From the sequence record NC_027381.1: 64,000 bases of DNA; one strand, written 5' to 3'. The position numbers and the translations under genes are program-made. A model generated the notes under the pieces. The model saw nothing but the letters and a program-made list of their open reading frames with translations, searched no databases and was not told the DNA's origin. Of this stretch, positions 4,671 to 59,922 are shown piece by piece (within the stretch, counting starts at the first letter, position 1; every line of letters starts with the position of its first letter). The stretch is from Escherichia phage Pollock.

Positions 4671-4843
4671 TGACTGAACCAATGAGTAAGTTTGAGCTAG
4701 AAAGACATATCCATAATCTTAAGGAATATGATTCCAAGATTGCTGGTCATGAATCTGAAGTAGTTCGTCTACAAGAAGAACGTCGAGAGTACATTAATCG
4801 ACACAATCTTAACAAGATTGCAGAGAAGGTATTTCCTGCTTAA
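4670..4843 (+). CDS. hypothetical small protein (57 aa, coiled-coil-like)
   Basis: ATG overlaps dut stop (GTGATGA); not in ORF track because under 60 aa; translated by eye. Confidence 0.3.
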   Translation: MTEPMSKFELERHIHNLKEYDSKIAGHESEVVRLQEERREYINRHNLNKIAEKVFPA

Positions 4844-4865
4844 GCGCCTACGGCGCTCTCTTTGG
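4843..4865 (+). promoter_or_regulatory. recurrent motif: GC hairpin with 3-nt loop (aGCGCC-TAC-GGCGCt) followed by TCTCTTTGG
   Basis: one of four near-identical instances (4843, 5646, 13796, 59899); function unknown. Confidence 0.4.
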
Positions 4866-4869
4866 TTAT

Positions 4870-4898
4870 AGCTACCTTCGGGTAGCTTTTTATTTTTT
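4870..4898 (+). terminator. rho-independent terminator
   Basis: agctacc-ttcg-ggtagct hairpin followed by ttttatttttt. Confidence 0.6.
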
Positions 4899-4905
4899 GG
4901 GGAAA

Positions 4906-5217
4906 ATGATGGCTAAAGAACCAATCTCCAAACTATGTATTCCTATTGGAGATAAATATGAAATTACCTCTAATGGGTATTCATATGTATTAGTTGAGAA
5001 AAGAACTGTTCAATCAGGAGTTAAAGCTGGGACTACTGCTTCCAGTAATGTTGGTTATTTTCAGACTTTAGGTTCTCTTGCTAAACAGTTAATTAATAAA
5101 GAAGTATGTGAAACTAACATTACTTCTTTACAACAATTAAATGAGCGTATCGAAGAACTAGGTATTGGTATAGCTCAGTTACTTGAACAACTTGTTAAAC
5201 AAAATGAAGGTAAATGA
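4906..5217 (+). CDS. hypothetical protein
   Basis: ORF track gives 4897 (TTG); ATG at 4906/4909 after a GGGGA RBS is more likely. Confidence 0.4.
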   Translation: MMAKEPISKLCIPIGDKYEITSNGYSYVLVEKRTVQSGVKAGTTASSNVGYFQTLGSLAKQLINKEVCETNITSLQQLNERIEELGIGIAQLLEQLVKQNEGK

Positions 5218-5218
5218 A

Positions 5219-5641: not shown

Positions 5642-5645
5642 TTCT

Positions 5646-5667
5646 CGCACTTCGTGCGTCTCTTAGG
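5646..5667 (+). promoter_or_regulatory. recurrent motif: hairpin CGCAC-TTC-GTGCG followed by TCTCTTAGG
   Basis: second instance of the hairpin + TCTCTT(T/A)GG motif; directly followed by a terminator hairpin. Confidence 0.4.
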
Positions 5668-5690
5668 AGTCATTTTGGCTCCTTTTTATT
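5664..5690 (+). terminator. rho-independent terminator
   Basis: aggagtc-atttt-ggctcct hairpin followed by ttttatt. Confidence 0.5.
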
Positions 5691-5713
5691 AACATCTGAA
5701 AGAGGAATTTATT

Positions 5714-11371: not shown

Positions 11372-11508
11372 TACGTCTAAATCTCCTATTGCATGGGATA
11401 TCTTTCGTATCCCTTCAAAACATGTATGTCGAACCAAGAAACGCACTGTAGCCACTATTGCTCGTAATAAGGGTTATCGTGTGATTCCTGTGTTCGGAAG
11501 AAGTTAAA

Positions 11509-11523
11509 GCCCCTTCGGGGCTT
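11509..11523 (+). promoter_or_regulatory. GC hairpin with 3-nt loop (AGCCCC-TTC-GGGGCT)
   Basis: same hairpin architecture as the recurrent motif but without TCTCTTTGG; ~80 nt upstream of a highly codon-biased gene. Confidence 0.3.
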
Positions 11524-11601
11524 GCCTCGGAAAGAAAGAGGAATTAATCCTCTTCAAATTAAACTCTATTTTTAATCCCAATCTGAAAAGGTAAATGAAA
11601 A

Positions 11602-13114: not shown

Positions 13115-13795
13115 ATGAAAAATCTTTATCAGAAGATTAATGGAAGCCAGTACAACCGAATCTTCGTTGTGGGAGATTTACATGGTTGTTTCGATGCTCT
13201 TCAAAAAGAAATGTGGGCTGTTCAATTTAATACTGAAACAGACCTTATTATATCTGTAGGTGATTTAATTGACCGTGGTACTCAAAACGTAGAGTGTTTA
13301 CGTCTATTAAAAGAACCTTGGTTTAAAGCTGTTTTAGGTAATCATGAAGTAATGGCATTGAATGCCTTATCTTCTGAACTTGACAGTGAAGAATCCAACT
13401 TAGCCTATTATAACTGGTTTAGTAATGGGGGTAGTTGGATTATGGATATTACGGAAGAACAGAAACCAGAAGTATTAGAGTTATTTGGTCTGGTAGCTGA
13501 ATTACCGGGAATCATCGAAATCTCTGTAGATGATAAAACTATTGTTGTTTGTCATGCAGACTACCCTTCAAATCAGTATGAATTCAATAAACCTATTGAT
13601 GAAAATACCCTTATTTGGGGAAGAGGACGTATTGTTCTAAACCAAAATAAAAAAGGTACTGTTATTGAAGGTGCTGATGAATTCTATTTTGGACATACCC
13701 CAGTTAAAGAACCTACTAAATTCTATAATCAAAACTATATTGATACAGGAGCAGTATTTCCTGTTGGTCAATTAAGTATGATTCAAATCAAATAA
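13115..13795 (+). CDS. Ser/Thr protein phosphatase (PPP / calcineurin-like metallophosphoesterase, lambda-PPase-like)
   Basis: 226 aa; GDLHGC (GDxHG), GDLIDRG (GDxxDRG), GNHE motifs in canonical order. Confidence 0.85.
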   Translation: MKNLYQKINGSQYNRIFVVGDLHGCFDALQKEMWAVQFNTETDLIISVGDLIDRGTQNVECLRLLKEPWFKAVLGNHEVMALNALSSELDSEESNLAYYNWFSNGGSWIMDITEEQKPEVLELFGLVAELPGIIEISVDDKTIVVCHADYPSNQYEFNKPIDENTLIWGRGRIVLNQNKKGTVIEGADEFYFGHTPVKEPTKFYNQNYIDTGAVFPVGQLSMIQIK

Positions 13796-13817
13796 CTGCC
13801 TACGGCAGTTTCTTTGG
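13796..13817 (+). promoter_or_regulatory. recurrent motif: hairpin CTGCC-TAC-GGCAG followed by TTTCTTTGG
   Basis: third instance; immediately after the phosphatase stop. Confidence 0.4.
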
Positions 13818-27489: not shown

Positions 27490-30400
27490 TTAGTACAGAC
27501 TTACTAAAGGATGGATAGTAAATCCATTTAGTGCTGTACCCATTCCAACGTTATAACTTAAGCTACCTGTTGCTAAGTTTGCTTCCATGATATTAGGTAA
27601 TCCAGATTCAGCAGTATTACCAAACATAAGGAATAATGCTCTTAATGGGTTTTCCCTAATCGTTCTTAAGATAATTTTCTGAATACGAATCTTATAGTTT
27701 AAGAACCATGTTAAACCAATAGCATCCAAATAGAATCTGGTGCGACTAGGTAATATGTCATAGTTCACAAACTCATCCATTACTCTATTCAATGCACTAT
27801 CTTTATCCATTGGATTACGAGAACGAGTAGTTAAATGCTTATATAGAGAGTATTTAGCAACGAAGTCACCATACTGAATTGAACGATTCAATAAGAAGTA
27901 CACATTACTATCTCTAGATAAAGTGATTTCTTTAGCAACACGTTTAACACTATCTGGAATACCAGAAGTGTACTCATCCATTTTAGTAAGTAGTTTATCC
28001 TTCAAAGAGTAATCATCCTGCTGACCTAAATCTTCTGCGATAGTTGGTAACAAACCAGCTTTAATTAAATCAGCTACTGGGTTACGAGCTTGAGAATCTT
28101 TAAGTTCAGATATTTTTCTCTGATACTCTTCAGCCATTCTTGGATTATGGTTTACAGCCAGATAATGAGAATACTCGTTAATTAATTTCTCATTTCTTCT
28201 GTACTCCTCAGCAGCCAGTACAGCAGTAGACATATCTTTAGCCATAGTAATTGGGCTAATACCTACCGTAGCCAAATGTACCATGTTAGATAAGATATTC
28301 CCTGCGGATACAACTACTGAACGAACTACAATCCAGTCCTTCATTTCCTTCACAAATTCCATCAAACCACGTTCACCAAGTCTTAGATAGCGTGCAGCAT
28401 TCTTACCTAAGAATGTTTCTGCAATGTTTACAAATGCTTTCTGAAACTCTTTAGAGAAATTGGTTTGACCAGTCCATAGATTCAGTACAGAAGGTTCACG
28501 ATAACCAAATGCATTATTCAGTAAATCCTTACGTACTTTAATTTTCCCATTAGGCCAAATACGTTTGGCTGCTTCTTTCATCTCAATAGGCATCAGTTCA
28601 TAGATTTCTTTTAACTGATGGTCTGTAGAGTTTTCATCTATAGTGATGTATTGATATGCTTTTCCTTCTCTAGCATCCTTCTTATAGATTTCACCAAGTC
28701 TTTCTAAAAGCATCTCATTGTATTTGGCAGCCTGAATCTCTTCAGCAATACGACCTTCCCAAGCAGCTAATACTTTAGTGAAGTCATTATCTACATTTAA
28801 TTGAGCTTCTCTATTAGCTCTTGGCATTTGGTACGAGTATCCCATTATTGAACCAGCGCGGTTTAAAACAGGCTGCATCTGTCCATCATAGTTCTGAGGC
28901 ATTGGTTTAGAAGCATCAAATAAATCATTGATAGCAGCTTGTTTATTAGCTGATACCTTGTTCTTTTCTGATGTCTTCCATGCACCCGGGGTCATAGAAC
29001 CATTAACACTTCTGCCTGTAATTGGGTTTACTCCACCTACGGTGCTTTGCAGGGTACTCATTACACCAGCAATCCAACGAGGTTCACCACCATTGTTAGA
29101 ATGGTAGTAGTACATTGGAGTTTTATCTGTATCTGCTGGGTCACGTTTAACTTGAGCACCTCTGGTATAGCCTCTACGAGATAAGCTTGGTTCATCCTTA
29201 ATGGATGCAATAATTACTTTTTTGTTTGGGTCAGTGATAGTAGGAGTAAATCCTTTAACTGCTGCCAAAGAATAGTTATTACCAGATTTAGCTAACTCAG
29301 CGCCTTTAAGGCTTTCATAGTATTTGAGAGTAAAAGTCATACCATTATTATCTGGTTCACCTTTAGTCATCTCTCTACTGATTACATTACTTACTGTTTC
29401 TTTATCTGCTTGAGATAATTCAGTAAGAGCACTCAATGAAGCCAAGGTATCAATTAACTGAGTAGCTATTTCAACAGCATCATTTGATGGTCTTTCTCTA
29501 CCAGTACCAATCAAACGTGCAATAGCAGCAGCATTTGATAATTGGTATGCCAGTGGAGATACTCCATGCACCATCTGTTTAGCTAAACCATGAGCAGATT
29601 TAATATAGAATGCAGAGTTTTGAGCACCTGCTTTTTGTAACTGAGATTCTATTAAATCTATCTCTTTAGCTAACTCATTTGGATTAGTTAATAATTCATT
29701 TAAACGAACCAAGTCATACCCATTAGCAAACAGGTATGCCATATCTGTATTGGCAACTACTCTCTGAATAGCCTCTTTCTCATTTTGGTTTAAAGAAACA
29801 AACGTTTTTTCAATCATACCCGGAACCATCTCACGAATAATCTGACGTGCTCTATCAGCAGCCATATTTTTCTGAGTTAATAAGGTATGAATACTACTGT
29901 TGGTTTCATTAGAACCAATAAATTCATTAATGAGTTCAGCGATAGTACCTAGTTTTCCATCCTGATGAATGGTCATATAAATGTGAGTTATAGCCTCACG
30001 TACATCATGAGCATCTTGTTCATTAAATACTGCTGCTCCAACAGTAATACCAAATGCTACAGACTTAGGTACTTTCTTCTCTACTTTGCTTAACTGCTTA
30101 CGAATAGAGTTACCAAAAGCTCTCAACCTATCTTGAGTAGCTTCAGTGATTTCTTCTGTACCTCTACCAATTCTGGTAAAGAGATTATCTCTTGCCTGAC
30201 TATCTACATGACTAATGTTCTTAGCCAGTTTAGATAAACGAGAAGCAATATTTGTATCTCTTAAAGATTTAGTAGCTAAGCCAGATAACCAAGTAAGAAT
30301 CATATTAGTTAAATCACCAATACGTTCTCTAAGAGATGTAGCCTGATTCTGTCTGGTACGTTTAACACTAATTTGAGACAGCTTATTTCTTAATTGTTCA

Positions 30401-33400
30401 TTGGTTTCAGCCAATGCAATAAAGTTAGCAAGTCTGTTAGTACGACCAGTAGCATCAGTAGTAATAGCTGTATTGCCAAATACTGCATCATATCTTTGTT
30501 TAGCTAATGCCATTTCATTAGCAGAACGATTGTTAGGGTCAGTTAAGAAATCTTCTACTTTTAAGTTTTCTCTGGCTTGCGAGTACAAACTACGTGCAAC
30601 CAGAACACTTGGAGAAAAGTTCTCTAACCCATATTTCATAGATACTTGCAGCATCTTGAATACAAATGCTTCTTTCTCACTCATGTTAAAACCATGAGCA
30701 ATTAATGCATTTGGTGAGTCATCAATTTCTGGGTCAATGCTATCTACCAAAAGTTTATCTTGGTAATGCTCTAAACCAGATATTTGCTGACCAGTATTTT
30801 TAATTACTTTAATGATATTGGATTGTAAGTAATCCAGAGTATCTGTTAGATGATTTACATGTTCCTGAGATGCTTTACCTGCATCCAATTTATTAAATAA
30901 TGTTTCTGCATCTAATCTATTAATGTTGTTAGCATTTTGCTGAGCATAGCTTGTTGTATCTCTGGATTTAACAGGATTGGTAGCATCAGCCAAAGCAACG
31001 GTATGGCCTAACAAACGAGTCCAGTAAGAAGTAATGTCTGGATTAGAGCCAATAGCAAACAGACGTTTAATAGATTCAGCTAATTGCTTAAGTACCTTTG
31101 TTACAGTTCCTGTAATAGTTTTTTTAGTCATTGCATCAATCATCCTTGGGTTAACAAGACCCCATGCAATGAATTCAGCAGTAGCCTGAGCCATATCACC
31201 AGAAGCAATATGATTATTAATCAAGTCTACAACACTATCTGTTTCAGGATTCGTACTAGAATACTCATTAACAAATTTAGTCATGAGTGCTTCTATTGAA
31301 GCAATCTCTACTTTTTGAGCAGGAGTTAATGCTTCTGGATTACTGTAATAATTGTGAACAGCATTAGCAGTAGCAGCATGAATTAACTCATGCATTACAG
31401 TCTCAATAGACTGAGAACCAATATAGATATTCTGTCCCTGTGTAAGCCCTAAGAATGAGTTATTAAACTCAACCTTAGTATCAGGTGTCATTTCCTGTTG
31501 AACGGCTGAGAGAGCTTCTGGAGAGCCTACATACACATTAATATCTTCAGGAATAGAGTTAGCAATCTTATCTAATACGAAGCTAGTAATTCTATTTTGA
31601 CGAGAAGGTAAAGATTTAGCTGCTTCTTTAATAGCAGCAATCACATCACCTTTAGACAGTACTTTAATTCCATCATGTCCTGATACATTTCTTCCATTTT
31701 TAGCCAATGCTTCAATCATTTGACGAGTAGGAGGAATAGTTACTCTACCTTTAGGGAGAGATACTGATTCCATAGTAGGAAGTTCTGTATTAGCAATTAA
31801 CTGTTCTAAAGGAGTTCTGGTATCAATTGCTTCTTTATCAGTCTGCTTACCATTCTGAACATTGAATGGAATATTAGCCCCGGTCATTTGGTTAATAGAA
31901 GTAACTGCTTCTCCTCCTAATAAACCTTGTTTAATAGCAGTTTGAGTAGCAGCTTCTTTTTTAAGAAGTGTAGTAAATGCTTCTAACACTTCTGGGCTAG
32001 TAGGTGAATTGGTTTCATCTGCTCCAATCATTTCCATAATTCCACGGAAAGATTGTTCCAAACGTGTATCTGCATCTGGACCTAATTCTTCAGTTAGATT
32101 TACTCCTTCCATCGCTTGCTCAAAACGATTAGTAAAATCTTGAAGTAAATCAAATTCATTCCAACTTTGCAGAACACCTTGGTTAATAGCTTGAGAACCA
32201 GTATCTAAATGAGCTACAGCATTAATATAACCATCAAATACGTTAAGGGCATTGTTAGGGTTAATATCACGAGCAATAGCCTGCATAGCTGCTTCTACAG
32301 ATTGAACCAATAAAGGCATTACACGAGTACCTGGTTCAGTATAAGTAGGAGTATCTACACCAAAAGTAGCACGACGCATTTTACCATCCAGATTTCTACG
32401 TCCTCTGGATTCCATACGATAAATATCAAATGTGACTCTACCTTCTTCACTCAGAAGAATACCTTCATTTAATTTAGCTGCATCAGTATTACCAGCAGTA
32501 AACCAAGAGTTAAAGATAGGCATCTGAGTAATCAGTTCTCTCTTAATCTCGTTATATTGCTGCTGAGAAAGAGATTCATACTTAGATAATTTACCTGCTT
32601 CTCTAAGTTCTTTTTCTTTAGCTTCTACTACTTTATTCCAACGAGACATGAATACTTCATGCATTACAGCAGCAGCATAAACCATCATCTTGCCGCGATT
32701 GATTACAGTACCAAATTCATTAGCAATTGATTCATTTACTGCTGCACCAATACCAATTTTGATGTTTTGGGTAATTGCTTCAATCTGCTCGCTAGTAAAC
32801 TCAAATTTAGTTACATCTTTTCCTAAATTGATAGGAGCACCAATTTTTACCCAAGAACCATTACGAAATACTTGAGCAGTAGTTAATTCATTAGTTGTAT
32901 TGGTCAAATCATTAATATGAGCAATTGCAGCATCTCTATCTTCCTGATTAGTAGCTGAATCTACTGCTCTTAATGCTTCTGTGATTGCTTCGTAATAACC
33001 ATTAGCAATACCCATAGCAATCTTTCTATTGATTGCATTAGCACCACCAGAATAAACAGTAACTGTTACTGGATTTTTAAGTAATCCTCGACCTATTTGG
33101 ATTGGATGTTCTACATCCTCTCCTTCAACAATATTTACATCACCAATTAGTTTTGATGCAGCAAGAGTTACCCTTACCTGATTTTTCAAGCGTTCAATAT
33201 CTCTCATCTCTTTTTGTTGGAATTGTCGAGATTTATTTTTAAGGGCAGCTAACCTGTTAGGGATATTACTGTAAGCATCCATCATGTTGTTGATGTATTG
33301 CTGTGAGCCAGCAGCAGCAGTTTTATACAGGTCTAAGAATCCCGGTTCTTCAGCAGCATCATTGTATAGACGGTCTGATTGCCCATAGAACAAACCACCT

Positions 33401-36400
33401 TTCTCTAACTTATTCAGTAAATCTTGGTTCACGTCTTTTAAACCAAGCTGAACAATAGAGTTAAATGGTCCATTAGTTACACCATCAAGCTCCAGCATCA
33501 CATGAGTCTGGAATGAGGATTTACCTTGTTCTACTGCTAATTCATATTGAGCTTGTGCATATAAAGCATGGAGTGTTTTAGTTTTCTCCTTACCTGCTTT
33601 TACAGCTTCTAAAAGAACCTCTGCATCAGCATCACTAATTGAATCTTGGTTTTCAGCAGCTTTTAGAATATTGATAGCATCTCTAAATAAACCAGTACTG
33701 ATAGCTTTATTTAGCTTATCTCTGGCAGTCTCAGAAGAGAGTTTATCAACAGCAATATCCAATCCTTGAGCAATAGCATAATCAAGAAATGCACCATGTT
33801 GAGGATTGTTGAGTTCAATAGTAGAAGGTTCAACAGTAATTAATTCACGATGTAATTTAGCTGACTGAGGGTTTAAATCCCCTGAGTTAAGCATCATACG
33901 GAAGTTACTAATTACGTTATATGCAAAATAAATAGGTGTATTAGCCAGAGGTAATCCAGCTTCTGACATACGAGTTAAACCGTTAATCAGAGTATTAATA
34001 TCTCTTTCAATAGTACGGTTAGAACCTTGAATGGATTTCAGATGAGCACCATTAGCATTCTCTTCTGATTGAATGCCTAACATTCTACCAATCCATTCTG
34101 TACCTAATTTATCCAGCATAAGGTCATGAAGACCCATGTTGATATAATGAGGTTGTTTACTGGCTTTGTTACGTGCAGCAAGCATCTTTTCAGGAATATC
34201 CTGACCACCACCATTTTTAACTTTAGTGCTCTGACCTTTTGGTGGAGTACCAAAGTATGCTCCTGCTTTTTCTCTCTGAGGATTAGTTAATTGACCTAAG
34301 AGGTCATTGGAATCCTTCATTAAGTCTACTAAACGTTTAGCAGCTTCAGATTCTTCATTCATACGAATGAATATACGAGAGTTTTTAATGTTGGATTCAT
34401 TTACTTTAGTAGAACCAACAGCAGCTAATTCACTGTTTTTAACAACAGATTCTTGAACCAGATTAGCATTAATCATTACGTTCAATACTTCAGTTGCTAG
34501 TGCTTTAGATACAGCATCACGAACAGAGATAGGAGTATTAGGGTCAGCATTAATACCTAAGATTCCAAAAATCTCTCTGCTTAAATAATCAATAACATTT
34601 TGCCGGTCTGTACCTACATTACGTAATAAATCTGTTTGCTCTACAGTAGGTTTAGTTTTGTTATCTAAACCAAGAATATCCATTACTGTACGGTCATCAT
34701 TGAATGTAGTTTCAACTGCATTACGTACAAACCACTGCATCATACCAGCAGTCATTGCTTCAATTACTGGCTGAGGTAAGAAGTAAACATTTTCACCATT
34801 GATATTTCTTACTTCACTAAAATATTCGACAGGGTATGTTTCCCAGAAGATACGTTGACCTTCAGGAGTTAATTTACCCCAAGATTGAATTAACGATTGT
34901 TCAATAGCAGGGACTAAACCAGCAAATTGACGTAGTACTTTTACTTCTTTCTCTGTTACTTGTTCTGGTTTAATAAATCCTTTAAACAGATTTTGAATCT
35001 GAGTAATAGGATTAGAACCATTGGTAAAAATGTTATTAAGTCTTCCAGAGAAATTAGAAGTTCTCAGGAATGCAGAACGTTTACCTGTAGGTTTAAACCA
35101 TTTTTTAACTTGGTTAGTAGCCTGATAGTTCTTATCTGCTTCTGAAGTAGATTTAGCATCAGAACGTACAGTTTCTGATTGCAGACTACTCAGAATATCG
35201 AAATTAACACCTTTATCTAAACCAAGTTCTAATTGAGACTCATCCATTAAATCAGTCTCAACTTCAGTTGGTTTTTCCTGAATCTGAATTTCAGATTCAA
35301 CTACATCTGGTTTCTCAAATAGTTCTCCTTGAACTGGAGTACTAGTAGGAGCTTCTGTAACAGCTTCTGGCTGTGTTTCTACAGTCTCAGAAGGTGTTTG
35401 TACCTGTTCTTCAGAAACCTGTGCAGAAGCCTCTATAGGAGCTTCTGATTCTTGAGTTGAGACTAATTCCTCTGTAGCAACTGGAGCAGATTGTGCTGGC
35501 ACAGATACAGGTTTACCATCTACTAATTGACTAGTAATGGTATGTGCTTGACGAACAGCATTAGCATCATTACGAATTTCTTTGATTAATCCTTTAGAAC
35601 GTACCGGATGATACGTCATAGGATTTCCATCTAAAGATAAATATGGTTGTCCTGTAGTTGGATTAATTACTTCTACAGGTTGATTACCAGTAAAGTTTTG
35701 AGCAGCCTGTTCAAATGCATTAGCTTTAGTTTCCATGTGCTCTGCAAAACGGTTTAAATGGTCTAATAAACCTTGAGCACGAGCAGTATCCCCTAAAGAT
35801 AATGCACGGAAGATACCTTGCTGATACTGTTGAATACCAATAAATCCATCAGAACCTTTACGTACATCTTCTCCTACTTGGCTCATTGCTTTACCAGTAG
35901 CAGAGATAATTTTTAATTTATCTACATCCTGCTGGTTCAAACCAATGGTTTCTGCTGAATTAACTAAACGGTCAGCAACTTCTGGAGTAATAGAAGATGC
36001 ATCTAAATTCATTTGAGCCAGAACAGATTTAATGTTCTTTTGTACTTCAGGAGATTTATAAGTTTCTGGAGTAATTTCAGAAGGTAAAGACTCCATAATC
36101 TTATTCATTTCTTCTGGAGTCAGTCTGAAGCTTTCAGCAGTAGTTTTAACTGCTTGTACATCAGGATGGTTCAGCACAGCATTGATATTATCAATAGCTG
36201 TTTGATACTGAGCTTTCTCTTCTTCTGGTGCAACTTCCATCTGTGCTTGAATTTGAGGTAAAGCTTCCTCATAAGCAGAGATAACATTATTACCTACAAC
36301 AGCTAAATCTCTACGAGAAGCTTCATCCAAATTACGTTCTTTAATTGCACGGGAAATTCTCAAAATAGAATCTGGAGAACTAATTTCCTCTTCAGGAATA

Positions 36401-38103
36401 GCTTTAAATACTTCTTTAGCAGCAGGTTCAGTAACAGCATCAACAGCTTTAACTACAGTTGGTTCTGCTACTGCTTCAGCATCTGTTTGTTGTACTGTTT
36501 GTTTAACTGATTCATTAGCAGCAGATACAGTATTCCTAAAAGATTGTGCTCTGGATTCTGCTTTACGGGCTTCTCTTGCTTCAAATGCTTCACGACCTTG
36601 TTGAGCACCTTCTTGAATTGCTCTAGGTGTTTCACTGATAGCCGAGCCAAAAGCACCCATACCCGCACCAGCAATAGCAGACTCAACAGCGTTTGAACCA
36701 ATGTCTTCAGCAAGGGACTGAGATTCATCAGCAGAAGTCCGTATGCCGAGGTTAGAAGCAAATTGACCAGTAATCCCTTGGGAGGTTTCTTCAATAGTTT
36801 CTTTGAAAGCATTGTTAAGAACTCGTGAGGAAGCACTAAAGAATCCCGTACCTTCAAGTAAGGAAGGAGTGAATATACGAGATTCAAATGGAGCAGCAAC
36901 CTTACCAGTCAGAGCACCAAGAGTACCTGCTACCAAAGCAGTGACATTACCTGTTTGAGTACGTACTTGTCTTCTGGCTTGCTCTGGAGACATACCATCA
37001 GCAATTAAATCACGATACATAGGTGATTTTTCTGCTAATTGCTTATCAGTCATTCCATCAATCTGGTCTAATGTTTGTTGGGCATTAGAACCTGCTTCTT
37101 GGAAACCTACATAACCAACCAATGCTCTTTCAGCAGCATCCTGAAGACGTTTTCTACCATACTGAGTTGAAGCTAGCTTGGTAGCAAAATCTGCACCATA
37201 TTCTTCAGCTAATTGTTTAAATGCTCCACGAGAAGCAATCTTACCTACTAAACCACCAGTTAATATATCTGGAGCAGATTCAGCAATAAGTGTAGTTAAT
37301 GCTCCCGGAGCACCACCATATTGTTCAGCAGTATTAACAAACTGACGTAATTGTTCTTTAGCCCCTGCAACTAAAGGATTATCACCTTTAGCTATATCAG
37401 CAGCTTCACGAGCTTCAGCACCTTGTTTAAATCTCTCTTTTTCTGCTTCAATTACAGATTGTTCATATTGAACACGCGGAGAATATTGAGAACGTTGTTC
37501 TTCAACATACTGTTTTAATGGTACATCAATACCCACTTGTTCTAATAAAGTAGGTTGTCCTAATTGTTCTTCTTGACCAGTAACATTAGCAATTAAATCT
37601 TGAGTATTTTGTAATGCTAAGTTACCCAAACCAGTAACAAATCTAGCTGTATTACCTGCCCATATCTGTGCAGCATTACCTACATCAGATAATTCTATAG
37701 GAGCATTTTCAAATATATCTGTATTGGCTTGAGCAATATTTAAAGACAGTTTGTCTCTAGCTGCCTGAGGACCATATTTCTGCTGTAATGCAGATAAAGG
37801 CATATCTCTTAAATCAGCCAAATATTGCTCAGAAGGATTAGTTTGAGTAGCAGTAGTAGTAGTTCTTTGTCCAGATAGCATCTGATTCATCTGTTCTCTT
37901 GTATATTTAGGACCAGATTCTGCTAACTGGATTGCTTGCTGTGCTCTTTGATACTGTGGAGAACCTACAGCAAAGTCTATTTCTACCCCGGGTACTGGAG
38001 TACCTAACTCTAATTTCTTCTGTTGAGTAGCTATATTTAATTGTTGTGTTTTTTGTAAGGCAGCATTAGCTAATTCTTGCTGTTTCTCAAATCCGGTGGC
38101 CAT
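27490..38103 (-). CDS. giant virion-encapsidated RNA polymerase (N4 vRNAP-like)
   Basis: single uninterrupted 3,537-aa ORF; size and position at the head of the late structural block fit N4-type architecture; catalytic motifs not verified by eye. Confidence 0.8.
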   Translation of the reverse strand: MATGFEKQQELANAALQKTQQLNIATQQKKLELGTPVPGVEIDFAVGSPQYQRAQQAIQLAESGPKYTREQMNQMLSGQRTTTTATQTNPSEQYLADLRDMPLSALQQKYGPQAARDKLSLNIAQANTDIFENAPIELSDVGNAAQIWAGNTARFVTGLGNLALQNTQDLIANVTGQEEQLGQPTLLEQVGIDVPLKQYVEEQRSQYSPRVQYEQSVIEAEKERFKQGAEAREAADIAKGDNPLVAGAKEQLRQFVNTAEQYGGAPGALTTLIAESAPDILTGGLVGKIASRGAFKQLAEEYGADFATKLASTQYGRKRLQDAAERALVGYVGFQEAGSNAQQTLDQIDGMTDKQLAEKSPMYRDLIADGMSPEQARRQVRTQTGNVTALVAGTLGALTGKVAAPFESRIFTPSLLEGTGFFSASSRVLNNAFKETIEETSQGITGQFASNLGIRTSADESQSLAEDIGSNAVESAIAGAGMGAFGSAISETPRAIQEGAQQGREAFEAREARKAESRAQSFRNTVSAANESVKQTVQQTDAEAVAEPTVVKAVDAVTEPAAKEVFKAIPEEEISSPDSILRISRAIKERNLDEASRRDLAVVGNNVISAYEEALPQIQAQMEVAPEEEKAQYQTAIDNINAVLNHPDVQAVKTTAESFRLTPEEMNKIMESLPSEITPETYKSPEVQKNIKSVLAQMNLDASSITPEVADRLVNSAETIGLNQQDVDKLKIISATGKAMSQVGEDVRKGSDGFIGIQQYQQGIFRALSLGDTARAQGLLDHLNRFAEHMETKANAFEQAAQNFTGNQPVEVINPTTGQPYLSLDGNPMTYHPVRSKGLIKEIRNDANAVRQAHTITSQLVDGKPVSVPAQSAPVATEELVSTQESEAPIEASAQVSEEQVQTPSETVETQPEAVTEAPTSTPVQGELFEKPDVVESEIQIQEKPTEVETDLMDESQLELGLDKGVNFDILSSLQSETVRSDAKSTSEADKNYQATNQVKKWFKPTGKRSAFLRTSNFSGRLNNIFTNGSNPITQIQNLFKGFIKPEQVTEKEVKVLRQFAGLVPAIEQSLIQSWGKLTPEGQRIFWETYPVEYFSEVRNINGENVYFLPQPVIEAMTAGMMQWFVRNAVETTFNDDRTVMDILGLDNKTKPTVEQTDLLRNVGTDRQNVIDYLSREIFGILGINADPNTPISVRDAVSKALATEVLNVMINANLVQESVVKNSELAAVGSTKVNESNIKNSRIFIRMNEESEAAKRLVDLMKDSNDLLGQLTNPQREKAGAYFGTPPKGQSTKVKNGGGQDIPEKMLAARNKASKQPHYINMGLHDLMLDKLGTEWIGRMLGIQSEENANGAHLKSIQGSNRTIERDINTLINGLTRMSEAGLPLANTPIYFAYNVISNFRMMLNSGDLNPQSAKLHRELITVEPSTIELNNPQHGAFLDYAIAQGLDIAVDKLSSETARDKLNKAISTGLFRDAINILKAAENQDSISDADAEVLLEAVKAGKEKTKTLHALYAQAQYELAVEQGKSSFQTHVMLELDGVTNGPFNSIVQLGLKDVNQDLLNKLEKGGLFYGQSDRLYNDAAEEPGFLDLYKTAAAGSQQYINNMMDAYSNIPNRLAALKNKSRQFQQKEMRDIERLKNQVRVTLAASKLIGDVNIVEGEDVEHPIQIGRGLLKNPVTVTVYSGGANAINRKIAMGIANGYYEAITEALRAVDSATNQEDRDAAIAHINDLTNTTNELTTAQVFRNGSWVKIGAPINLGKDVTKFEFTSEQIEAITQNIKIGIGAAVNESIANEFGTVINRGKMMVYAAAVMHEVFMSRWNKVVEAKEKELREAGKLSKYESLSQQQYNEIKRELITQMPIFNSWFTAGNTDAAKLNEGILLSEEGRVTFDIYRMESRGRRNLDGKMRRATFGVDTPTYTEPGTRVMPLLVQSVEAAMQAIARDINPNNALNVFDGYINAVAHLDTGSQAINQGVLQSWNEFDLLQDFTNRFEQAMEGVNLTEELGPDADTRLEQSFRGIMEMIGADETNSPTSPEVLEAFTTLLKKEAATQTAIKQGLLGGEAVTSINQMTGANIPFNVQNGKQTDKEAIDTRTPLEQLIANTELPTMESVSLPKGRVTIPPTRQMIEALAKNGRNVSGHDGIKVLSKGDVIAAIKEAAKSLPSRQNRITSFVLDKIANSIPEDINVYVGSPEALSAVQQEMTPDTKVEFNNSFLGLTQGQNIYIGSQSIETVMHELIHAATANAVHNYYSNPEALTPAQKVEIASIEALMTKFVNEYSSTNPETDSVVDLINNHIASGDMAQATAEFIAWGLVNPRMIDAMTKKTITGTVTKVLKQLAESIKRLFAIGSNPDITSYWTRLLGHTVALADATNPVKSRDTTSYAQQNANNINRLDAETLFNKLDAGKASQEHVNHLTDTLDYLQSNIIKVIKNTGQQISGLEHYQDKLLVDSIDPEIDDSPNALIAHGFNMSEKEAFVFKMLQVSMKYGLENFSPSVLVARSLYSQARENLKVEDFLTDPNNRSANEMALAKQRYDAVFGNTAITTDATGRTNRLANFIALAETNEQLRNKLSQISVKRTRQNQATSLRERIGDLTNMILTWLSGLATKSLRDTNIASRLSKLAKNISHVDSQARDNLFTRIGRGTEEITEATQDRLRAFGNSIRKQLSKVEKKVPKSVAFGITVGAAVFNEQDAHDVREAITHIYMTIHQDGKLGTIAELINEFIGSNETNSSIHTLLTQKNMAADRARQIIREMVPGMIEKTFVSLNQNEKEAIQRVVANTDMAYLFANGYDLVRLNELLTNPNELAKEIDLIESQLQKAGAQNSAFYIKSAHGLAKQMVHGVSPLAYQLSNAAAIARLIGTGRERPSNDAVEIATQLIDTLASLSALTELSQADKETVSNVISREMTKGEPDNNGMTFTLKYYESLKGAELAKSGNNYSLAAVKGFTPTITDPNKKVIIASIKDEPSLSRRGYTRGAQVKRDPADTDKTPMYYYHSNNGGEPRWIAGVMSTLQSTVGGVNPITGRSVNGSMTPGAWKTSEKNKVSANKQAAINDLFDASKPMPQNYDGQMQPVLNRAGSIMGYSYQMPRANREAQLNVDNDFTKVLAAWEGRIAEEIQAAKYNEMLLERLGEIYKKDAREGKAYQYITIDENSTDHQLKEIYELMPIEMKEAAKRIWPNGKIKVRKDLLNNAFGYREPSVLNLWTGQTNFSKEFQKAFVNIAETFLGKNAARYLRLGERGLMEFVKEMKDWIVVRSVVVSAGNILSNMVHLATVGISPITMAKDMSTAVLAAEEYRRNEKLINEYSHYLAVNHNPRMAEEYQRKISELKDSQARNPVADLIKAGLLPTIAEDLGQQDDYSLKDKLLTKMDEYTSGIPDSVKRVAKEITLSRDSNVYFLLNRSIQYGDFVAKYSLYKHLTTRSRNPMDKDSALNRVMDEFVNYDILPSRTRFYLDAIGLTWFLNYKIRIQKIILRTIRENPLRALFLMFGNTAESGLPNIMEANLATGSLSYNVGMGTALNGFTIHPLVSLY

Positions 38104-56754: not shown

Positions 56755-57449
56755 CCTCTCATTTCAGGCTTCATATTAGATTGACCAATGTAAGCATTGT
56801 TCAAATCCAAATCCTCTATTCTCTTACACTCTGCTTCATATCTTTGAGACCATTCAACACCTTTAGCAGCAGTCTCTTGATTTGGTGAGTTAGAGTACAG
56901 TTGAGATGCAATGTAATAAGTAAGAGCTTTTTCATGACTAGCAGGAATACGAATATCAGTATTTAAATCTGTAGTATCCAAAGGAATCTTTGGATGATTG
57001 GCTCTATACGTAACAAACAATGCATTAGTTTCGATAGGAGATACTATCTGAATACAATCAAATGATGGAGTCATGATTGAACCACATTGAGGTTCATCAT
57101 TTAAATAGAGGCAACAACCTACTTCACTAAAAACACTCTCTACTCTAATTACATCCTCAGAGAATCTGTCAAAAGGAGTATCTTTAATGTATTTATATGG
57201 TTCAGTAGATTCAGTATTCATTTCAGCATACTGAACTCTTAGATAGTATTTACTAATGTGTTCATACTGCTGAATGATTACTTCCTTTTCTAGTAAAGGA
57301 AATCTTGTATGTAATGCAGTTAAGCCTGCATTAAGTTGAGCAATAATTTTAGGATAATCTTGTTCACGAATACCCTCTCCATTATTACCTACCCTAATCA
57401 GGCTTAACTCACCTACAGACAGCATCTGGAATAGTTCAGATAATTTCAT
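56745..57449 (-). CDS. hypothetical virion/tail-associated protein
   Basis: 234-aa ORF overlapping the tail gene start. Confidence 0.4.
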   Translation of the reverse strand: MKLSELFQMLSVGELSLIRVGNNGEGIREQDYPKIIAQLNAGLTALHTRFPLLEKEVIIQQYEHISKYYLRVQYAEMNTESTEPYKYIKDTPFDRFSEDVIRVESVFSEVGCCLYLNDEPQCGSIMTPSFDCIQIVSPIETNALFVTYRANHPKIPLDTTDLNTDIRIPASHEKALTYYIASQLYSNSPNQETAAKGVEWSQRYEAECKRIEDLDLNNAYIGQSNMKPEMRGWV

Positions 57450-57492
57450 AATGTAGTCCCATAAATTAATGTCGCTACATTATATGCTTAAC

Positions 57493-59115
57493 CTAAACCA
57501 GATAACTATCAATTCCATTGGTTTGATGAGGTGTAGACATATCCCATATACTATCTTCTTGTACGGCTCCTGAGATGCCCTGAGATGGTTTCCACACCTT
57601 CAAACAAGACAACATACTGATGGTATCAATGAAGTCATCATGCTTACTTTTAAAGCCTTCTACAGTAGCCATACGAAGTTCATCCATAGCTTCAAGCATG
57701 ATTTTTTCTTCCTTCATTTCTTCAGGGAAGTAAAACTTACCTGTTTTAAACCAAGGAAGTACTGTATTGAATCTCACCATCTTATTGGTATTAGGTCTAA
57801 TACCCGGTCTATTGTTATTGCCTTCAGAAGCAAAGTTAAACCAGATATTACGTCTCATCATCTCATCCTGAAGTAGAGGGATGAATCCACCTTGTTGACC
57901 TGTAACTTCAATACCTACAGATTGAGGTTGGTATTCAACTACCAATCTAAATAAATCATCGAAGTTTTTATCCATAAGCTGACGTCTACAGATACCATCA
58001 ACCCAGAACCAGTCACCATTACTATTGATAGCCCATACAGATATTACAGAGAAGTCTGCTGATTGCTTATCAGAGGTAGCAAAGTCAGTAGTGATATAAA
58101 AATTAAAATGCCCTCTATTCAGTAGTAGAGATTTACGTTTATACCACTGAATATCTGACTCAAGAATTAGTCGTTCTTCATCAGAAGTAATACGTAACAT
58201 CAATTCTTGGTTAAATGCAGCTACCTGTCCTGTAGATACAGCAAGGTCATACTGACCTTTAACAAAGTCATAAGAGAATCTGTCTTCCCATGCTCCTACA
58301 AATTCTTCTCTCGTACATGGGAATTTCTCACATATTGGGAATACGTTGACGTACCAACCCCCAGACTCAACAGCTTCATAAAGAATATCGTTCTTGTTAA
58401 AGGGTGTGCCACTGAAAACAATTTTTCTACGAGTAGGGTCAAGAGCATAGTCTACTCCTTTATACACAGTATCTTTAATTGCCTGCATTGTGCTCTTAGA
58501 TTTAGCATCATCATCACTAACCAAATCATCAAGCACAGCTAAAACAGGACGTTTACCAAAGATTTTAGTACCACGTAAACCAGTTTTAGCACCAAACATA
58601 CGAACACCTAACTTATGTCCATCAGCATTAGTAAATTCTAAGTAGGCATCAGTGAATTTAGCTTCAGGAATGTACTTCTGAAGAAATTCAGAGTTGTTAT
58701 AGCGATATTCGATGTTTTTTCTTAATGATTTAACCCCGTTTTCCATAGAATCCGAGATATAAATCATACCCTCGATTTCACCAAATCCATCAATTTCACC
58801 ATAAAGTGCTATGTATAAAACTAGATACTCACCAAATAGAGTAGTTTTAGCCATACCACGAGAACATAGATTAGCTAATCGAGTACGTTTACCTGCTAAT
58901 TCATCTAACATCTTAAGATGAACTACAGGAGTTAGATTTGACTCTCCTGCTTCACCATTAACTAACTTAATAAAGTTAACGTAATTAAGTGCGAATACAG
59001 AAGGAACATAATTTCCAGAGTTCAAGGAAGCATAATCGACAGAATTAAGCCATTCCTCTACTGTCTTTTTAACCATTGGGTCTTCTTTAATCGACACGTT
59101 CTGATTCCCCATCAA
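57493..59115 (-). CDS. terminase large subunit
   Basis: 540 aa; Walker B-like VLAVLDD; C-terminal nuclease-like FYITTDFATSDKQSADFSVISVWA. Confidence 0.7.
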   Translation of the reverse strand: MMGNQNVSIKEDPMVKKTVEEWLNSVDYASLNSGNYVPSVFALNYVNFIKLVNGEAGESNLTPVVHLKMLDELAGKRTRLANLCSRGMAKTTLFGEYLVLYIALYGEIDGFGEIEGMIYISDSMENGVKSLRKNIEYRYNNSEFLQKYIPEAKFTDAYLEFTNADGHKLGVRMFGAKTGLRGTKIFGKRPVLAVLDDLVSDDDAKSKSTMQAIKDTVYKGVDYALDPTRRKIVFSGTPFNKNDILYEAVESGGWYVNVFPICEKFPCTREEFVGAWEDRFSYDFVKGQYDLAVSTGQVAAFNQELMLRITSDEERLILESDIQWYKRKSLLLNRGHFNFYITTDFATSDKQSADFSVISVWAINSNGDWFWVDGICRRQLMDKNFDDLFRLVVEYQPQSVGIEVTGQQGGFIPLLQDEMMRRNIWFNFASEGNNNRPGIRPNTNKMVRFNTVLPWFKTGKFYFPEEMKEEKIMLEAMDELRMATVEGFKSKHDDFIDTISMLSCLKVWKPSQGISGAVQEDSIWDMSTPHQTNGIDSYLV

Positions 59116-59788
59116 TTATTAGTTTAGTATGAGCAACTTCTTTAGCGGAATACAAACCACCTTCAATGAGTTGTTGCTGCTTCGCAGCTAATCTTGAAGT
59201 TATTTCTCTTAATTCATTAATAACTCCACCTTCCTGAATACCAACATTGAGTTCAATCTTACTGGCTTCAGGACGTTTAAGATGATTAAGCAATGAGTTG
59301 GCTGCATCACATCTAACTTTTTCACTTTTAGCTGTCAACATTAAATCAGCTTGTACATTAATAGCTTTCTGGAATATGTCAGCATTAAGTACATGAGTTG
59401 GAACCAAAGTTTGCTCATAAATTAAATTAACTAATTTATTTTTATTATATGCAGATACATAACAATGAATGTCCTTAGTAGGAGTATTGTTATTTAAGAA
59501 GTTCTGATATCTATCAGGGAATGTTTTTATGTAAGCTTCAAAGTTAGTGTGTCCCATCAGTTTAAAACTTACGTACTTAACAGCAGAGATATAGTCTTCA
59601 ATCTTAAACCTACCTTCTTTCATGACATGGGTATAAGACATTAAGTTATCTCTAAGTACTTCACCCATATTAGGGTCAGACAGAATCTTATTGATTTTAT
59701 CCATCAATTCTTGATTGATGTTGCCTTTATGATTAGTAGGCATTACAGCTTTAAATTGTTCTACGGTTAATTGAGTAGACATGAGCAC
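59087..59788 (-). CDS. hypothetical protein (possible terminase small subunit by position)
   Basis: 233-aa ORF immediately upstream of terminase large subunit on minus strand. Confidence 0.35.
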   Translation of the reverse strand: MLMSTQLTVEQFKAVMPTNHKGNINQELMDKINKILSDPNMGEVLRDNLMSYTHVMKEGRFKIEDYISAVKYVSFKLMGHTNFEAYIKTFPDRYQNFLNNNTPTKDIHCYVSAYNKNKLVNLIYEQTLVPTHVLNADIFQKAINVQADLMLTAKSEKVRCDAANSLLNHLKRPEASKIELNVGIQEGGVINELREITSRLAAKQQQLIEGGLYSAKEVAHTKLIIDGESERVD

Positions 59789-59898
59789 TCCAATAGCATC
59801 TATAGTTAGTCTATAGGTACTATATAGTACTTTTTAATAAAAATAGAAGATACTTAAGAAAGGAAGCTATAGAAGTGTTACTGATACATCTTTTGTTT

Positions 59899-59922
59899 AA
59901 GCACCTTCGGTGCTTTTCTTGG
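59899..59922 (+). promoter_or_regulatory. recurrent motif: hairpin AAGCACC-TTC-GGTGCTT followed by TTCTTGG
   Basis: fourth instance; in divergent region at the start of the plus-strand block. Confidence 0.4.

What the first reader, a model, noticed from the sequence alone, without database searches (positions are those of the whole stretch)
4843..59922. Recurring regulatory motif: GC hairpin with 3-nt loop followed by TCTCTTTGG
Four plus-strand intergenic sites share one architecture: aGCGCC-TAC-GGCGCt TCTCTTTGG (4843), CGCAC-TTC-GTGCG TCTCTTAGG (5646), CTGCC-TAC-GGCAG TTTCTTTGG (13796) and AAGCACC-TTC-GGTGCTT TTCTTGG (59899). At 4843 and 5646 a conventional terminator hairpin follows within ~10 nt. 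The 5-7 bp stem with a 3-nt loop recalls the DNA-hairpin promoters described for N4 virion RNAP, but three sites sit just after stop codons, so a phage-RNAP terminator or RNA processing site is equally possible.
Basis: partly seen in the sequence, partly recalled or inferred. Interest (0 to 1): 0.55.

Follow-up and report, generated by a model that had tools for sequence, protein, structure and literature searches.

The report
Second class of phage hairpin promoters
The recurring GC hairpin is real, has five copies rather than four, and is conserved in related N4-like phages; it most likely marks a second class of DNA-hairpin promoters that switch on the phage's middle genes and its tRNA genes, and is unlikely to be a terminator.

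Summary
The window is the last 64 kb of a 68,365-bp N4-like phage genome (Schitoviridae, near Salmonella FSL SP-058 and Klebsiella Pylas).

**Observation.** All four sites exist as described. A fifth lies at 11507. The T-rich tail alone occurs at chance frequency. The real invariant is a GC-rich stem, a T-N-C loop closed by C:G, and GG exactly 14 nt after the loop centre, whatever the stem length. Five such sites are seen on the + strand against 0.13 expected (0 of 300 shuffles). A covariance model separates them cleanly: 30-40 bits against 17 for the next hit.

**Conservation.** Four of the five sites recur at orthologous positions in all or most of eight relatives, the fifth in two, with compensatory stem changes and a variable spacer.

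**Two classes.** The same genomes carry a separate class at the left end: loop always TTC, GG at +11 as in N4 P1-P3, five copies, all upstream of the RNAPII genes. These are the virion-RNAP early promoters. The +14 class lies only downstream of the RNAPII genes and before the tRNA array.

**Verdict.** Most likely these are middle-stage hairpin promoters, probably read by RNAPII with its gp2 cofactor, as proposed for LUZ7. No transcript data exist. Two sites sit immediately upstream of conserved terminators, which is unexplained. This is a new variant of a known kind.

The parts
4843..4865 (+). Class II hairpin site A: stem 4843-4848/4852-4857 (AGCGCC/GGCGCT), loop TAC centred at 4850, spacer CTCTTT, GG at 4864-4865 (proposed start). 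The stop codon of ORF 4667-4843 overlaps the stem.
   Evidence: (39.7 bits). Orthologues in all 8 relatives, with the compensatory change AGCGCC/GGCGCT <-> AACGCC/GGCGTT.
5646..5667 (+). Class II site B: stem CGCAC/GTGCG (5 bp), loop TTC centred at 5652, GG at 5666-5667. This is the weakest and least conserved member.
   Evidence: 29.6 bits. Orthologue with a 7-bp stem and spacer GTATA in Pylas and KpCHEMY26 only. It is absent at the same gene junction in SP-058, L005, L006 and L014.
11507..11530 (+). It lies upstream of the FtsH-like gene 11602-13044.
   Evidence: 36.4 bits. Orthologues in 8 of 8 relatives with compensatory changes AAGCCCC / AAGCGCC / AACCGCC.
13794..13817 (+). Class II site D: stem AACTGCC/GGCAGTT, loop TAC centred at 13802, GG at 13816-13817. 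It heads the 13.8-27.4 kb replication-gene block.
   Evidence: 39.9 bits. The central loop base varies among orthologues (TAC, TCC, TTC). L005/L006 have ACCACC-TTC-GGTGGT with G kept at +14.
59899..59922 (+). Class II site E: stem AAGCACC/GGTGCTT, loop TTC centred at 59907, GG at 59921-59922. It lies in the divergent gap between the late operon (first gene 59788-59087, - strand) and the right-end + strand unit.
   Evidence: 40.3 bits. Conserved in all 9 related loci, including a variant GCCCC-TGC-GGGGC. It is 16 nt before the first tRNA in SP-058.
4870..4899 (+). Conventional intrinsic terminator (AGCTACC-TTCG-GGTAGCT + TTTTTATTTTTT) beginning 5 nt after the GG of site A. It lies inside the 5' leader of ORF 4906-5217.
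   Evidence: Conserved with compensatory stem changes and a T-tract in all 8 relatives.
5665..5691 (+). Conventional terminator (AGGAGTC-ATT-TTGGCTCCT + TTTTATTA) that includes the GG of site B.
63451..63469 (+). Class I (N4-type) hairpin promoter: GAGTC-TTC-GACTC, GG at +11 (63468-63469), 40 nt before the first ORF (63509). This is the copy in the right terminal repeat of the leftmost early promoter.
   Evidence: Same architecture and position as N4 P1.
212..3005 (+). RNAPII genes: small subunit 212-1135 and large subunit 1767-3005. All class I sites lie upstream of them and all class II sites lie downstream.
   Evidence: Pylas annotation; small subunit 36% identical to N4 gp15 and 34% to LUZ7 gp20.
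27490..38103 (-). Virion RNA polymerase gene (3537 aa), the hallmark of N4-like phages.
   Evidence: ORF size. Relatives identified.
60308..60637 (+). tRNA array (Pro, Met, Arg, Leu) downstream of site E.

Best explanation
The five sites are a second class of single-stranded DNA-hairpin promoters for a phage-encoded T7-like RNA polymerase.

Proposed mechanism (inferred, not shown):
1. Under negative supercoiling the inverted repeat extrudes.
2. The template (-) strand forms a hairpin with a G-N-A triloop closed by C:G.
3. The polymerase binds the hairpin and uses the single-stranded spacer as a ruler.
4. It starts RNA at the GG 14 nt from the loop centre.

The class serves the transcription units that follow the RNAPII genes: the block with a gene matching a replication-initiation protein family, the TerB block, the FtsH-like/phosphatase block, the 13.8-27 kb replication block, and the right-end tRNA unit. 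These are middle-stage units by analogy with N4.

The most likely reader is the middle polymerase RNAPII with its ssDNA-binding cofactor gp2, not the virion polymerase. The virion polymerase has its own, separate class: loop TTC, GG at +11, left 3.9 kb only.

Shown here: the motif, its significance, its conservation and covariation, the two classes and their separate locations. Inferred: that transcription starts at the GG, and which polymerase reads the sites.
For: 1. Architecture matches N4 P1-P3. In N4 the hairpin has a 3-nt loop T(T/C)C and is followed by GG, at +11. Here the GG sits at a fixed +14 from the loop centre although stems are 5, 6 or 7 bp.
2. Conservation pattern. Invariant are the loop's T and C, the closing C:G pair, a T two bases before GG, and GG. 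The spacer varies (ctcttt, attttt, atcctt, gcctc, gcctt, gtata) and so does the central loop base (A/T/C/G).
3. Stem covariation: 25 double-sided changes, 0 single-sided; 0 of 500 shuffles reach the observed score.
4. On the template strand the loops read G-N-A closed by C:G. This is the same sheared G:A arrangement that the N4 review gives as the basis of promoter-hairpin stability (PMC4496689). The template strands fold as predicted.
5. Two classes with separate territories, seen in 7-8 genomes. Class I has loop TTC in essentially all unique sequences and GG at +11. Its five sites all lie before the RNAPII genes, including a tandem pair before the gp2 homologue. Class II lies only after the RNAPII genes and at the right end.
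6. Site E has no + strand gene upstream. It directly precedes the tRNA array in all relatives, 16 nt before the first tRNA in SP-058.
7. Published context. N4 vRNAP promoters are constrained to the left end, and vRNAP needs a purine at -11. Class II has a pyrimidine there at A and D. In LUZ7, ONT-cappable-seq mapped middle-stage starts at G about 15 nt after GC-rich hairpins with 3-4-nt loops, and middle transcripts reach the right end.
8. The RNAPII small subunit shares a roughly 24-aa N-terminal segment with LUZ7 that N4 lacks. This is only suggestive, from three genomes.
Against: - There are no transcript 5' ends for this phage or any close relative.
- Sites A and B are followed within 0-5 nt of the proposed start by conserved intrinsic terminators. 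A transcript starting there would have to read through them.
- This phage has an N4-type gp2 (37% identity). N4 RNAPII is described as using AT-rich non-hairpin promoters, so hairpin recognition by RNAPII is not the N4 precedent.
- The LUZ7 assignment of hairpins to RNAPII rests on timing, not biochemistry.
- Several + strand gene blocks after terminators (7.2-10 kb, 10.1-11.5 kb, 13.1-13.8 kb) have no class II site. The class therefore cannot be the only middle promoter type.
- Site B is missing from five of eight relatives.
Confidence: 0.55

Rival explanations
1. They are hairpin promoters, but read by the virion RNA polymerase itself. On this view they are a second tier of vRNAP promoters that become available as more DNA enters the cell, with a different start spacing.
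For: Hairpin recognition is the biochemically established property of vRNAP, not of N4 RNAPII. Classes I and II share the C:G-closed T-N-C loop and the GG start. vRNAP transcription is said to pull in 10-40 kb of the genome, so sites A-D would be reachable. Other N4-like clades have early hairpins with GG or G at about +13-14.
Against: Within this clade the left-end promoters keep GG at +11 and loop TTC with essentially no exception. Class II differs by a fixed 3 nt and lets the central loop base vary, including to a pyrimidine on the template strand. One enzyme with a fixed ruler would not be expected to use both. Site E is 64 kb from the left end, and in N4 that DNA enters only after middle transcription.
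Confidence: 0.2
2. They are terminators, or 3'-end stabilising hairpins, for phage RNA polymerases. The RNA hairpin plus a U-rich tail would end the upstream gene's transcript.
For: Four of the five sit immediately after a stop codon. In this genome the tails of A, D and E are T-rich, and a simple terminator scan flags 4843 and 13794. Tandem terminators are common, which would explain the adjacent conventional terminators at A and B.
Against: The U-tract is not conserved: GCCTCGG at C, GTATAGG at B in Pylas. GG at a fixed distance from the loop is conserved instead. That distance is measured from the loop, not from the stem base. The loop and closing-pair rule fits a DNA triloop on the opposite strand, whereas the genome's clear terminators use TTCG, TACG, TTAA or longer loops. 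No G:U pairs appear among 25 covarying cells. Site E precedes a tRNA array and has no + strand gene upstream. C and D would leave the large downstream blocks without any recognisable promoter.
Confidence: 0.12
3. They act at the RNA or protein-binding level. Possibilities are a processing site (for example RNase E next to a stem-loop), a 5'/3' stability element, or the operator of a phage regulator.
For: The position is intergenic and conserved. Small conserved hairpins also follow sites C and E inside the putative leaders.
Against: A 5-7 bp stem is too short for RNase III. Nothing in Rfam matches the sites. The fixed loop-to-GG distance and the parallel with the class I/N4 promoters are not predicted by this reading.
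Confidence: 0.06
4. Sites A and B make short terminated RNAs of about 25-35 nt that prime DNA replication. This would be an origin like the promoter-driven primary origin of T7.
For: Each of the two promoter-like sites is followed at once by a terminator and an AT-rich tract. The gene after A matches a PHROG annotated as replication initiation protein.
Against: This is purely circumstantial. Sites C, D and E lack the terminator, and no origin data exist for this clade.
Confidence: 0.05

Closest known systems
Bacteriophage N4 virion-RNAP early promoters P1-P3 (DNA-hairpin promoters)
   Same: Inverted repeat of 5-7 bp with a 3-nt loop. On the template strand the loop is G-N-A closed by C:G. A single-stranded spacer leads to a GG start. 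The sites are on the coding strand of rightward genes.
   Different: The start is at +14 rather than +11 from the loop centre. The central loop base is free, whereas N4 needs a purine at -11. The base at the N4 '-8 G' position is C on the template. The sites lie 9-18 kb and 64 kb from the left end rather than within the first few kb. The genome has a separate true N4-type set with GG at +11. The class II model finds nothing in the first 30 kb of N4 beyond a 14-bit partial hit on P3.
LUZ7 middle-stage hairpin promoters (ONT-cappable-seq, PMC9163698)
   Same: GC-rich hairpin with a stem of at least 6 bp and a 3-4-nt loop, about 15 nt upstream of a G start. They are located after the RNAPII genes and resemble the early promoters while being distinct from them. 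My scan of LUZ7 finds GCGTTC-TCC-GAACGC hairpins at 8238 and 9521 with G at +14. The first is followed 20 nt later by a terminator, the same order as window sites A and B.
   Different: There is no sequence-level match. LUZ7 uses the unrelated cofactor Drc, whereas this phage has an N4-type gp2. LUZ7 early and middle spacings differ by about 1-2 nt, against 3 nt here.
Intrinsic (rho-independent) terminators
   Same: GC-rich stem-loop after a stop codon, with a T-rich tail in three of the five sites in this genome.
   Different: The T-tract is not conserved. GG is conserved at a fixed distance from the loop. The loop is a triloop obeying a DNA-hairpin rule. One site precedes a tRNA array.

Membership tests
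N4 vRNAP early hairpin promoters | Inverted repeat forming a 5-7 bp stem with a 3-nt loop | tested here: met
   all five sites.
N4 vRNAP early hairpin promoters | Purine at the loop centre (-11) of the template strand | tested here: not met
   Template loops are GTA at A and D (pyrimidine centre) and GAA at B, C and E. Orthologues show GTA, GAA, GGA and GCA at the same site. The requirement is taken from PMC4496689.
N4 vRNAP early hairpin promoters | Template -10 G (C at the third loop position on the coding strand) | tested here: met
   Invariant column C12 in alignment A1.
N4 vRNAP early hairpin promoters | Template -8 G | tested here: not met
   The coding strand has G (T at site B) at that position, so the template has C or A.
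N4 vRNAP early hairpin promoters | Start (template C, RNA G) 11 nt from the loop centre | tested here: not met
   GG is at +14 in all five sites and their orthologues. Position +11 is T or C. The start site itself was not measured.
N4 vRNAP early hairpin promoters | Location at the left genome end, upstream of early genes | tested here: not met
   The sites are at contig positions 9.2, 10.0, 15.9, 18.2 and 64.3 kb of 68.4 kb. The left-end set is the separate class I.
N4 vRNAP early hairpin promoters | Initiation by vRNAP on single-stranded or supercoiled template | not testable with these tools
   Needs in vitro transcription.
LUZ7-type middle hairpin promoters | GC-rich hairpin, stem of at least 6 bp, loop of 3-4 nt | tested here: met
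   Four of five sites have 6-7 bp. Site B has 5 bp here and 7 bp in Pylas.
LUZ7-type middle hairpin promoters | Transcription start at G about 15 nt downstream of the hairpin | tested here: inconclusive
   A conserved GG lies 14 nt from the loop centre, but no 5' ends are available.
LUZ7-type middle hairpin promoters | Activity appears at the middle stage and depends on RNAPII | not testable with these tools
   Only the position downstream of the RNAPII genes supports it.
Intrinsic terminators | U-rich tract immediately 3' of the stem, conserved | tested here: not met
   Present at A, D and E in the window. Absent at C (GCCTCGG) and at B in Pylas (GTATAGG). The spacer is the least conserved part.
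Intrinsic terminators | Located at the 3' end of a transcription unit | tested here: inconclusive
   True for A-D, which lie after stop codons. Site E has no + strand gene upstream and sits just before tRNA genes. Antisense read-through from the late region cannot be excluded.

The most novel reading that the evidence does not exclude
Enterobacterial N4-like phages of this clade would use two polymerase-specific DNA-hairpin promoter codes that differ mainly by a 3-nt ruler and by loop stringency. The +11/TTC code would serve the injected virion polymerase. The +14/T-N-C code would serve the small heterodimeric RNAPII with gp2. This contradicts the N4 paradigm that RNAPII promoters are AT-rich and unstructured. 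In addition, a middle promoter would be deliberately nested just upstream of a terminator (sites A and B, and LUZ7 8238). One RNA hairpin would then end early transcripts and cap the 5' end of middle transcripts that read through it.
Probability: 0.35. Interest if true: 0.65.

Novelty: new variant of a known kind. Interest (0 to 1): 0.5.

Why it matters
Middle promoters of N4-like phages are poorly defined outside N4 itself, and in LUZ7 only four have been mapped.

- A cleanly separable second hairpin class sits beside the classical early class in the same genomes. It gives a direct, testable handle on how two very different T7-like polymerases, or one with two modes, read DNA hairpins and measure the distance to the start site.
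- It supplies operon boundaries for annotating this phage clade, which includes therapeutic candidates against Salmonella, Klebsiella and Shigella.
- It provides compact, orthogonal promoter parts for single-subunit polymerases.
- The promoter-then-terminator cassette, if functional, would be an unusual way of switching a region from early to middle control.

Tried and rejected
- **T-rich word as the motif.** TYTCTTWGG with up to 1 mismatch occurs at chance frequency (91 vs 78 +/- 8). It is not the defining feature.
- **Loop+GG without a stem.** CTNCG-N11-GG is not enriched (7 vs 4.5).
- **More members.** A covariance-model search with filters off found none on either strand of the window or in the missing 4.4 kb of the genome. 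The 17-bit hit at 53450-53484 (-) is an ordinary late terminator. The TTTCTTTGG at 48601 has no hairpin.
- **Known RNA families.** Rfam at gathering thresholds finds only a group I intron and four tRNAs, and nothing at the sites.
- **Same element in N4 or LUZ7.** The class II model finds nothing in N4 1-30 kb or LUZ7 1-36 kb.
- **Other N4-like clades.** A scan of 35 further loci around RNAPII genes shows mostly left-end hairpins with GG at +11, and one clade at about +14. There is no clear second class downstream of RNAPII by the same loop rule. One possible analogue lies before the FtsH-like gene of an Erwinia-type phage.
- **LUZ7 coordinates.** The supplementary tables with promoter coordinates are not held, so the comparison rests on the paper's text and my own scan.
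- **N4 middle-promoter consensus.** I could not retrieve it from the library and did not rely on memory for it.
- **Linkage of site B to a flanking gene.** I tested whether site B travels with its upstream or its downstream gene. Both flanks differ between the window and Pylas, and the site is absent at the same junction in five relatives, so this was uninformative.

Full report
**What the window is.** The window carries a 3537-aa ORF on the - strand (27490-38103). Its nearest relatives at about 80% nucleotide identity are N4-like phages: Salmonella FSL SP-058/SP-076, UTK0001, Shigella B2 and Klebsiella Pylas/KpCHEMY26. These are Schitoviridae, with Pylas placed in Humphriesvirinae. The window is the last 64,000 nt of a 68,365-nt viral contig. 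Window 63391-64000 is identical to contig 1-610, so this is a 610-bp direct terminal repeat. Window position 1 is therefore 4.4 kb into the genome. By comparison with Pylas and N4, the RNAPII subunit genes are window 212-1135 and 1767-3005. The + strand block 1-27.4 kb is the end of the early region plus the middle region. The - strand block is the late region. The + strand right end (59.9-63.4 kb) holds four tRNA genes.

**Checking the observation.** The four sites read as described. Conventional terminators follow the first two. A list of all perfect 3-nt-loop hairpins shows only six GC-rich ones on the + strand. Five of them have GG exactly 14 nt 3' of the loop centre, although their stems are 5, 6 or 7 bp. 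These are the four reported sites plus a fifth at 11507, AAGCCCC-TTC-GGGGCTT-GCCTC-GG. No other offset from 9 to 20 is occupied. Dinucleotide shuffles give 0.13 such sites per genome, and 0 of 300 shuffles reach five.

The T-rich word on its own is at chance frequency, and so is the loop+GG pattern without a stem. A covariance model built from the sites and their orthologues was run with filters off over the window and the missing left end. It returns exactly these five at 29.6-40.3 bits, and the next hit scores 17 bits. The invariant is hairpin + triloop + fixed distance to GG, not TCTCTTTGG.

**Conservation.** I fetched 20-kb neighbourhoods from related viral contigs.
- Sites A (4843) and C (11507) are present at the orthologous position in all eight close relatives.
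- Site D (13794) is present in all relatives that cover it, with a variant keeping G at +14 in two.
- Site E (59899) is present in all nine right-end loci.
- Site B (5646) is present only in Pylas and KpCHEMY26.

Stems change by compensatory substitutions: AGCGCC/AACGCC at A, AAGCCCC/AAGCGCC/AACCGCC at C, and AAGCACC/GCCCC at E. On a 20-sequence alignment there are 25 double-sided changes and no single-sided ones, and no shuffle reaches the covariation score. One caveat applies: members were collected by requiring at least 5 perfect pairs, so the percentage paired is partly by construction.

The invariant columns are the loop's first T and last C, the closing C:G pair, a T two bases before the GG, and the GG. 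The spacer varies (ctcttt, attttt, atcctt, gtcttt, gcctc, gcctt, gcttt, gtata). So does the central loop base (A, T, C, G), even at one orthologous site.

**A second, separate class in the same genomes.** N4's own promoters are visible in its sequence:
- position 90: GTTGC-TTC-GCAAC-ttatGG
- position 557: AAGAAGC-TCC-GCTTCTT-ttGG
- position 4546: AAGCTGC-TCC-GCAGCTT-ttGG

All three have GG at +11 from the loop centre. The review PMC4496689 gives -11 as the loop centre and +1 as a template C.

In this phage's left end there are five hairpins of exactly that kind, at contig 61, 682, 1499, 1552 and 3828. All have loop TTC and GG at +11, and all lie upstream of the RNAPII genes at 4577. They are conserved with compensatory changes in seven genomes, and loop TTC is seen in essentially every unique sequence. 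The first one recurs at window 63451 in the right terminal repeat. The tandem pair sits just before a protein 37% identical to N4 gp2, the RNAPII cofactor. This parallels the tandem early promoters before Drc in LUZ7.

I call these class I and take them to be the virion-RNAP early promoters. The five sites of the finding form class II. They have the same general plan but a 3-nt longer spacing and a relaxed loop. They occur only downstream of the RNAPII genes (contig 9.2, 10.0, 15.9 and 18.2 kb) and at the right end (64.3 kb).

**Why a promoter rather than a terminator.**
1. What is conserved is what a start-site ruler needs: the loop, the closing pair, a fixed distance and GG. What a terminator needs, the U-tract, is the least conserved part. 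It is absent at C and at B in Pylas.
2. The distance is constant from the loop, not from the base of the stem.
3. On the template strand every loop is G-N-A closed by C:G. The N4 review attributes the stability of the promoter hairpin to a sheared G:A pair in just such a loop. That GNA triloops closed by C:G are unusually stable DNA mini-hairpins is, as far as I recall, established knowledge; I did not test it here. The clear terminators of this genome use TTCG, TACG, TTAA or longer loops.
4. Site E lies in the divergent gap between the late operon and the right-end unit, with no + strand gene before it. In every relative it directly precedes the tRNA array, 16 nt before tRNA-Lys in SP-058.
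5. Sites C and D are the only recognisable signals in the short gaps before the FtsH-like gene and before the 13.6-kb replication block.

The template strands fold into the predicted hairpins at -5.9 to -6.9 kcal/mol.

**Which polymerase.** This step is inference. The evidence for RNAPII is as follows.
- Class I and class II occupy strictly separate territories on either side of the RNAPII genes.
- Class I is rigid while class II differs by a fixed 3 nt and tolerates a template pyrimidine at the loop centre. N4 vRNAP needs a purine at -11 and uses the spacer as a ruler.
- N4 vRNAP promoters are constrained to the left end, and the rest of the genome enters only after middle transcription. This matters most for site E.
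- In LUZ7, middle-stage starts map to G about 15 nt after GC-rich hairpins, and middle transcripts cover the right end.
- The RNAPII small subunit here shares with LUZ7 an N-terminal segment of about 24 aa that N4 gp15 lacks. This comes from three genomes and is suggestive only.

The evidence against RNAPII is as follows.
- N4 RNAPII uses AT-rich, unstructured promoters, and this phage has an N4-type gp2.
- The LUZ7 assignment rests on timing, not biochemistry.
- Several gene blocks that follow terminators have no class II site, so another promoter type must also exist.

Sequences such as CTTTTAGTT directly after the terminators at 4138 and 13069 resemble what follows terminators in N4's middle region. 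They may be that other promoter type.

**The unexplained part.** At A and B the proposed start is followed at once by a conventional terminator. That terminator is conserved, with covariation and a T-tract, in all relatives that have the site. It is followed directly by the ribosome-binding site of the next gene. LUZ7 shows the same order just after its RNAPII genes: hairpin at 8238, terminator at 8273.

Three readings are possible. The terminator may stop early transcripts while polymerases that start at the hairpin read through; LUZ7 terminators are mostly leaky and stage-dependent. One RNA hairpin may serve both as 3' end of early RNA and as 5' cap of middle RNA. Or short primer-like RNAs may be made. 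None of these was testable here.

**Comparison with known systems and novelty.** The sites work like N4-type DNA-hairpin promoters but fail four of N4's defining features: the -11 purine, the -8 G, the +11 start and the left-end location. They fit the published description of LUZ7 middle hairpin promoters in form and position, but they share no sequence with them and pair with a different cofactor family. I am not aware of a description of two co-existing hairpin classes with different rulers in enterobacterial N4-like phages, and library searches found none. I rate this as a new variant of a known kind, of moderate interest, resting entirely on comparative sequence evidence.

Noticed in passing
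window 6690-8955: The MoxR-like ATPase gene appears to be split by group I introns. There is a strong Rfam Intron_gpI match at 6778-7130 (101 bits). Weaker group-I-like matches at 7412-7638 and 8057-8216 flank an HNH/NUMOD4 homing-endonuclease ORF (7533-8093). A shared stretch CAACGACTAG..CTCAAGTGAGT occurs in both. Pylas annotates its NTPase as intron-split.
   Followed up: partly
window 5694, 6687, 11581, 13828: A conserved leader motif ATCTG-W-A-W-AGG(T) lies 8-15 nt before the start codons of four middle genes. It is kept in relatives even where site B is absent, and similar tATCT..AGG strings precede N4 genes. It could be an extended ribosome-binding or translational-operator element, or part of another promoter type.
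   Followed up: partly
window 4138-4170 and 13069-13105: The terminators are followed directly by CTTTTAGTT. This resembles 'ttttttagta' and 'ctttttagta' after terminators upstream of N4 gp17 and gp18. These are candidate N4-type AT-rich middle promoters embedded in terminator T-tracts.
   Followed up: no
window 1-20000: Sigma-70-like promoter matches are strongly depleted: 27 found against 81 +/- 8.5 in shuffles. Terminator-like sites are enriched: 27 against 8.8.
   Followed up: no
window 63391-64000 (= contig 1-610): A 610-bp direct terminal repeat with a run of 11 C about 30 nt from the terminus. The repeat contains the first early hairpin promoter and most of the first ORF.
   Followed up: partly
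L033 1499-1576 (contig coordinates, outside the window): Two class I hairpin promoters sit in tandem 53 nt apart, directly upstream of the N4 gp2 homologue (L033 1607-2020). This is the same layout as the tandem early promoters before Drc in LUZ7.
   Followed up: partly
window 212-1135: The RNAPII small subunit (307 aa) has an N-terminal segment (..EWVKGDYFESKNKRL..) shared with LUZ7 gp20 and missing from N4 gp15.
   Followed up: partly
L121 (LUZ7) 8238-8305: The hairpin GCGTTC-TCC-GAACGC, with G at +14, is followed 20 nt later by a canonical terminator just after the RNAPII large-subunit gene. A near-identical hairpin lies at 9521.
   Followed up: partly
window 5642-5713 vs L004 (Pylas) 4806-4880: The intergenic cassette of site B (hairpin + terminator + leader) is conserved between the window and Pylas, although the genes on both sides differ. 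This suggests the cassette marks a recombination junction.
   Followed up: partly
window 27462-27490: The hairpin AAGCCTC-TTCCAT-GAGGCTT has T-tracts on both sides, at the convergence of the middle (+) and late (-) blocks. It is a likely bidirectional terminator.
   Followed up: no
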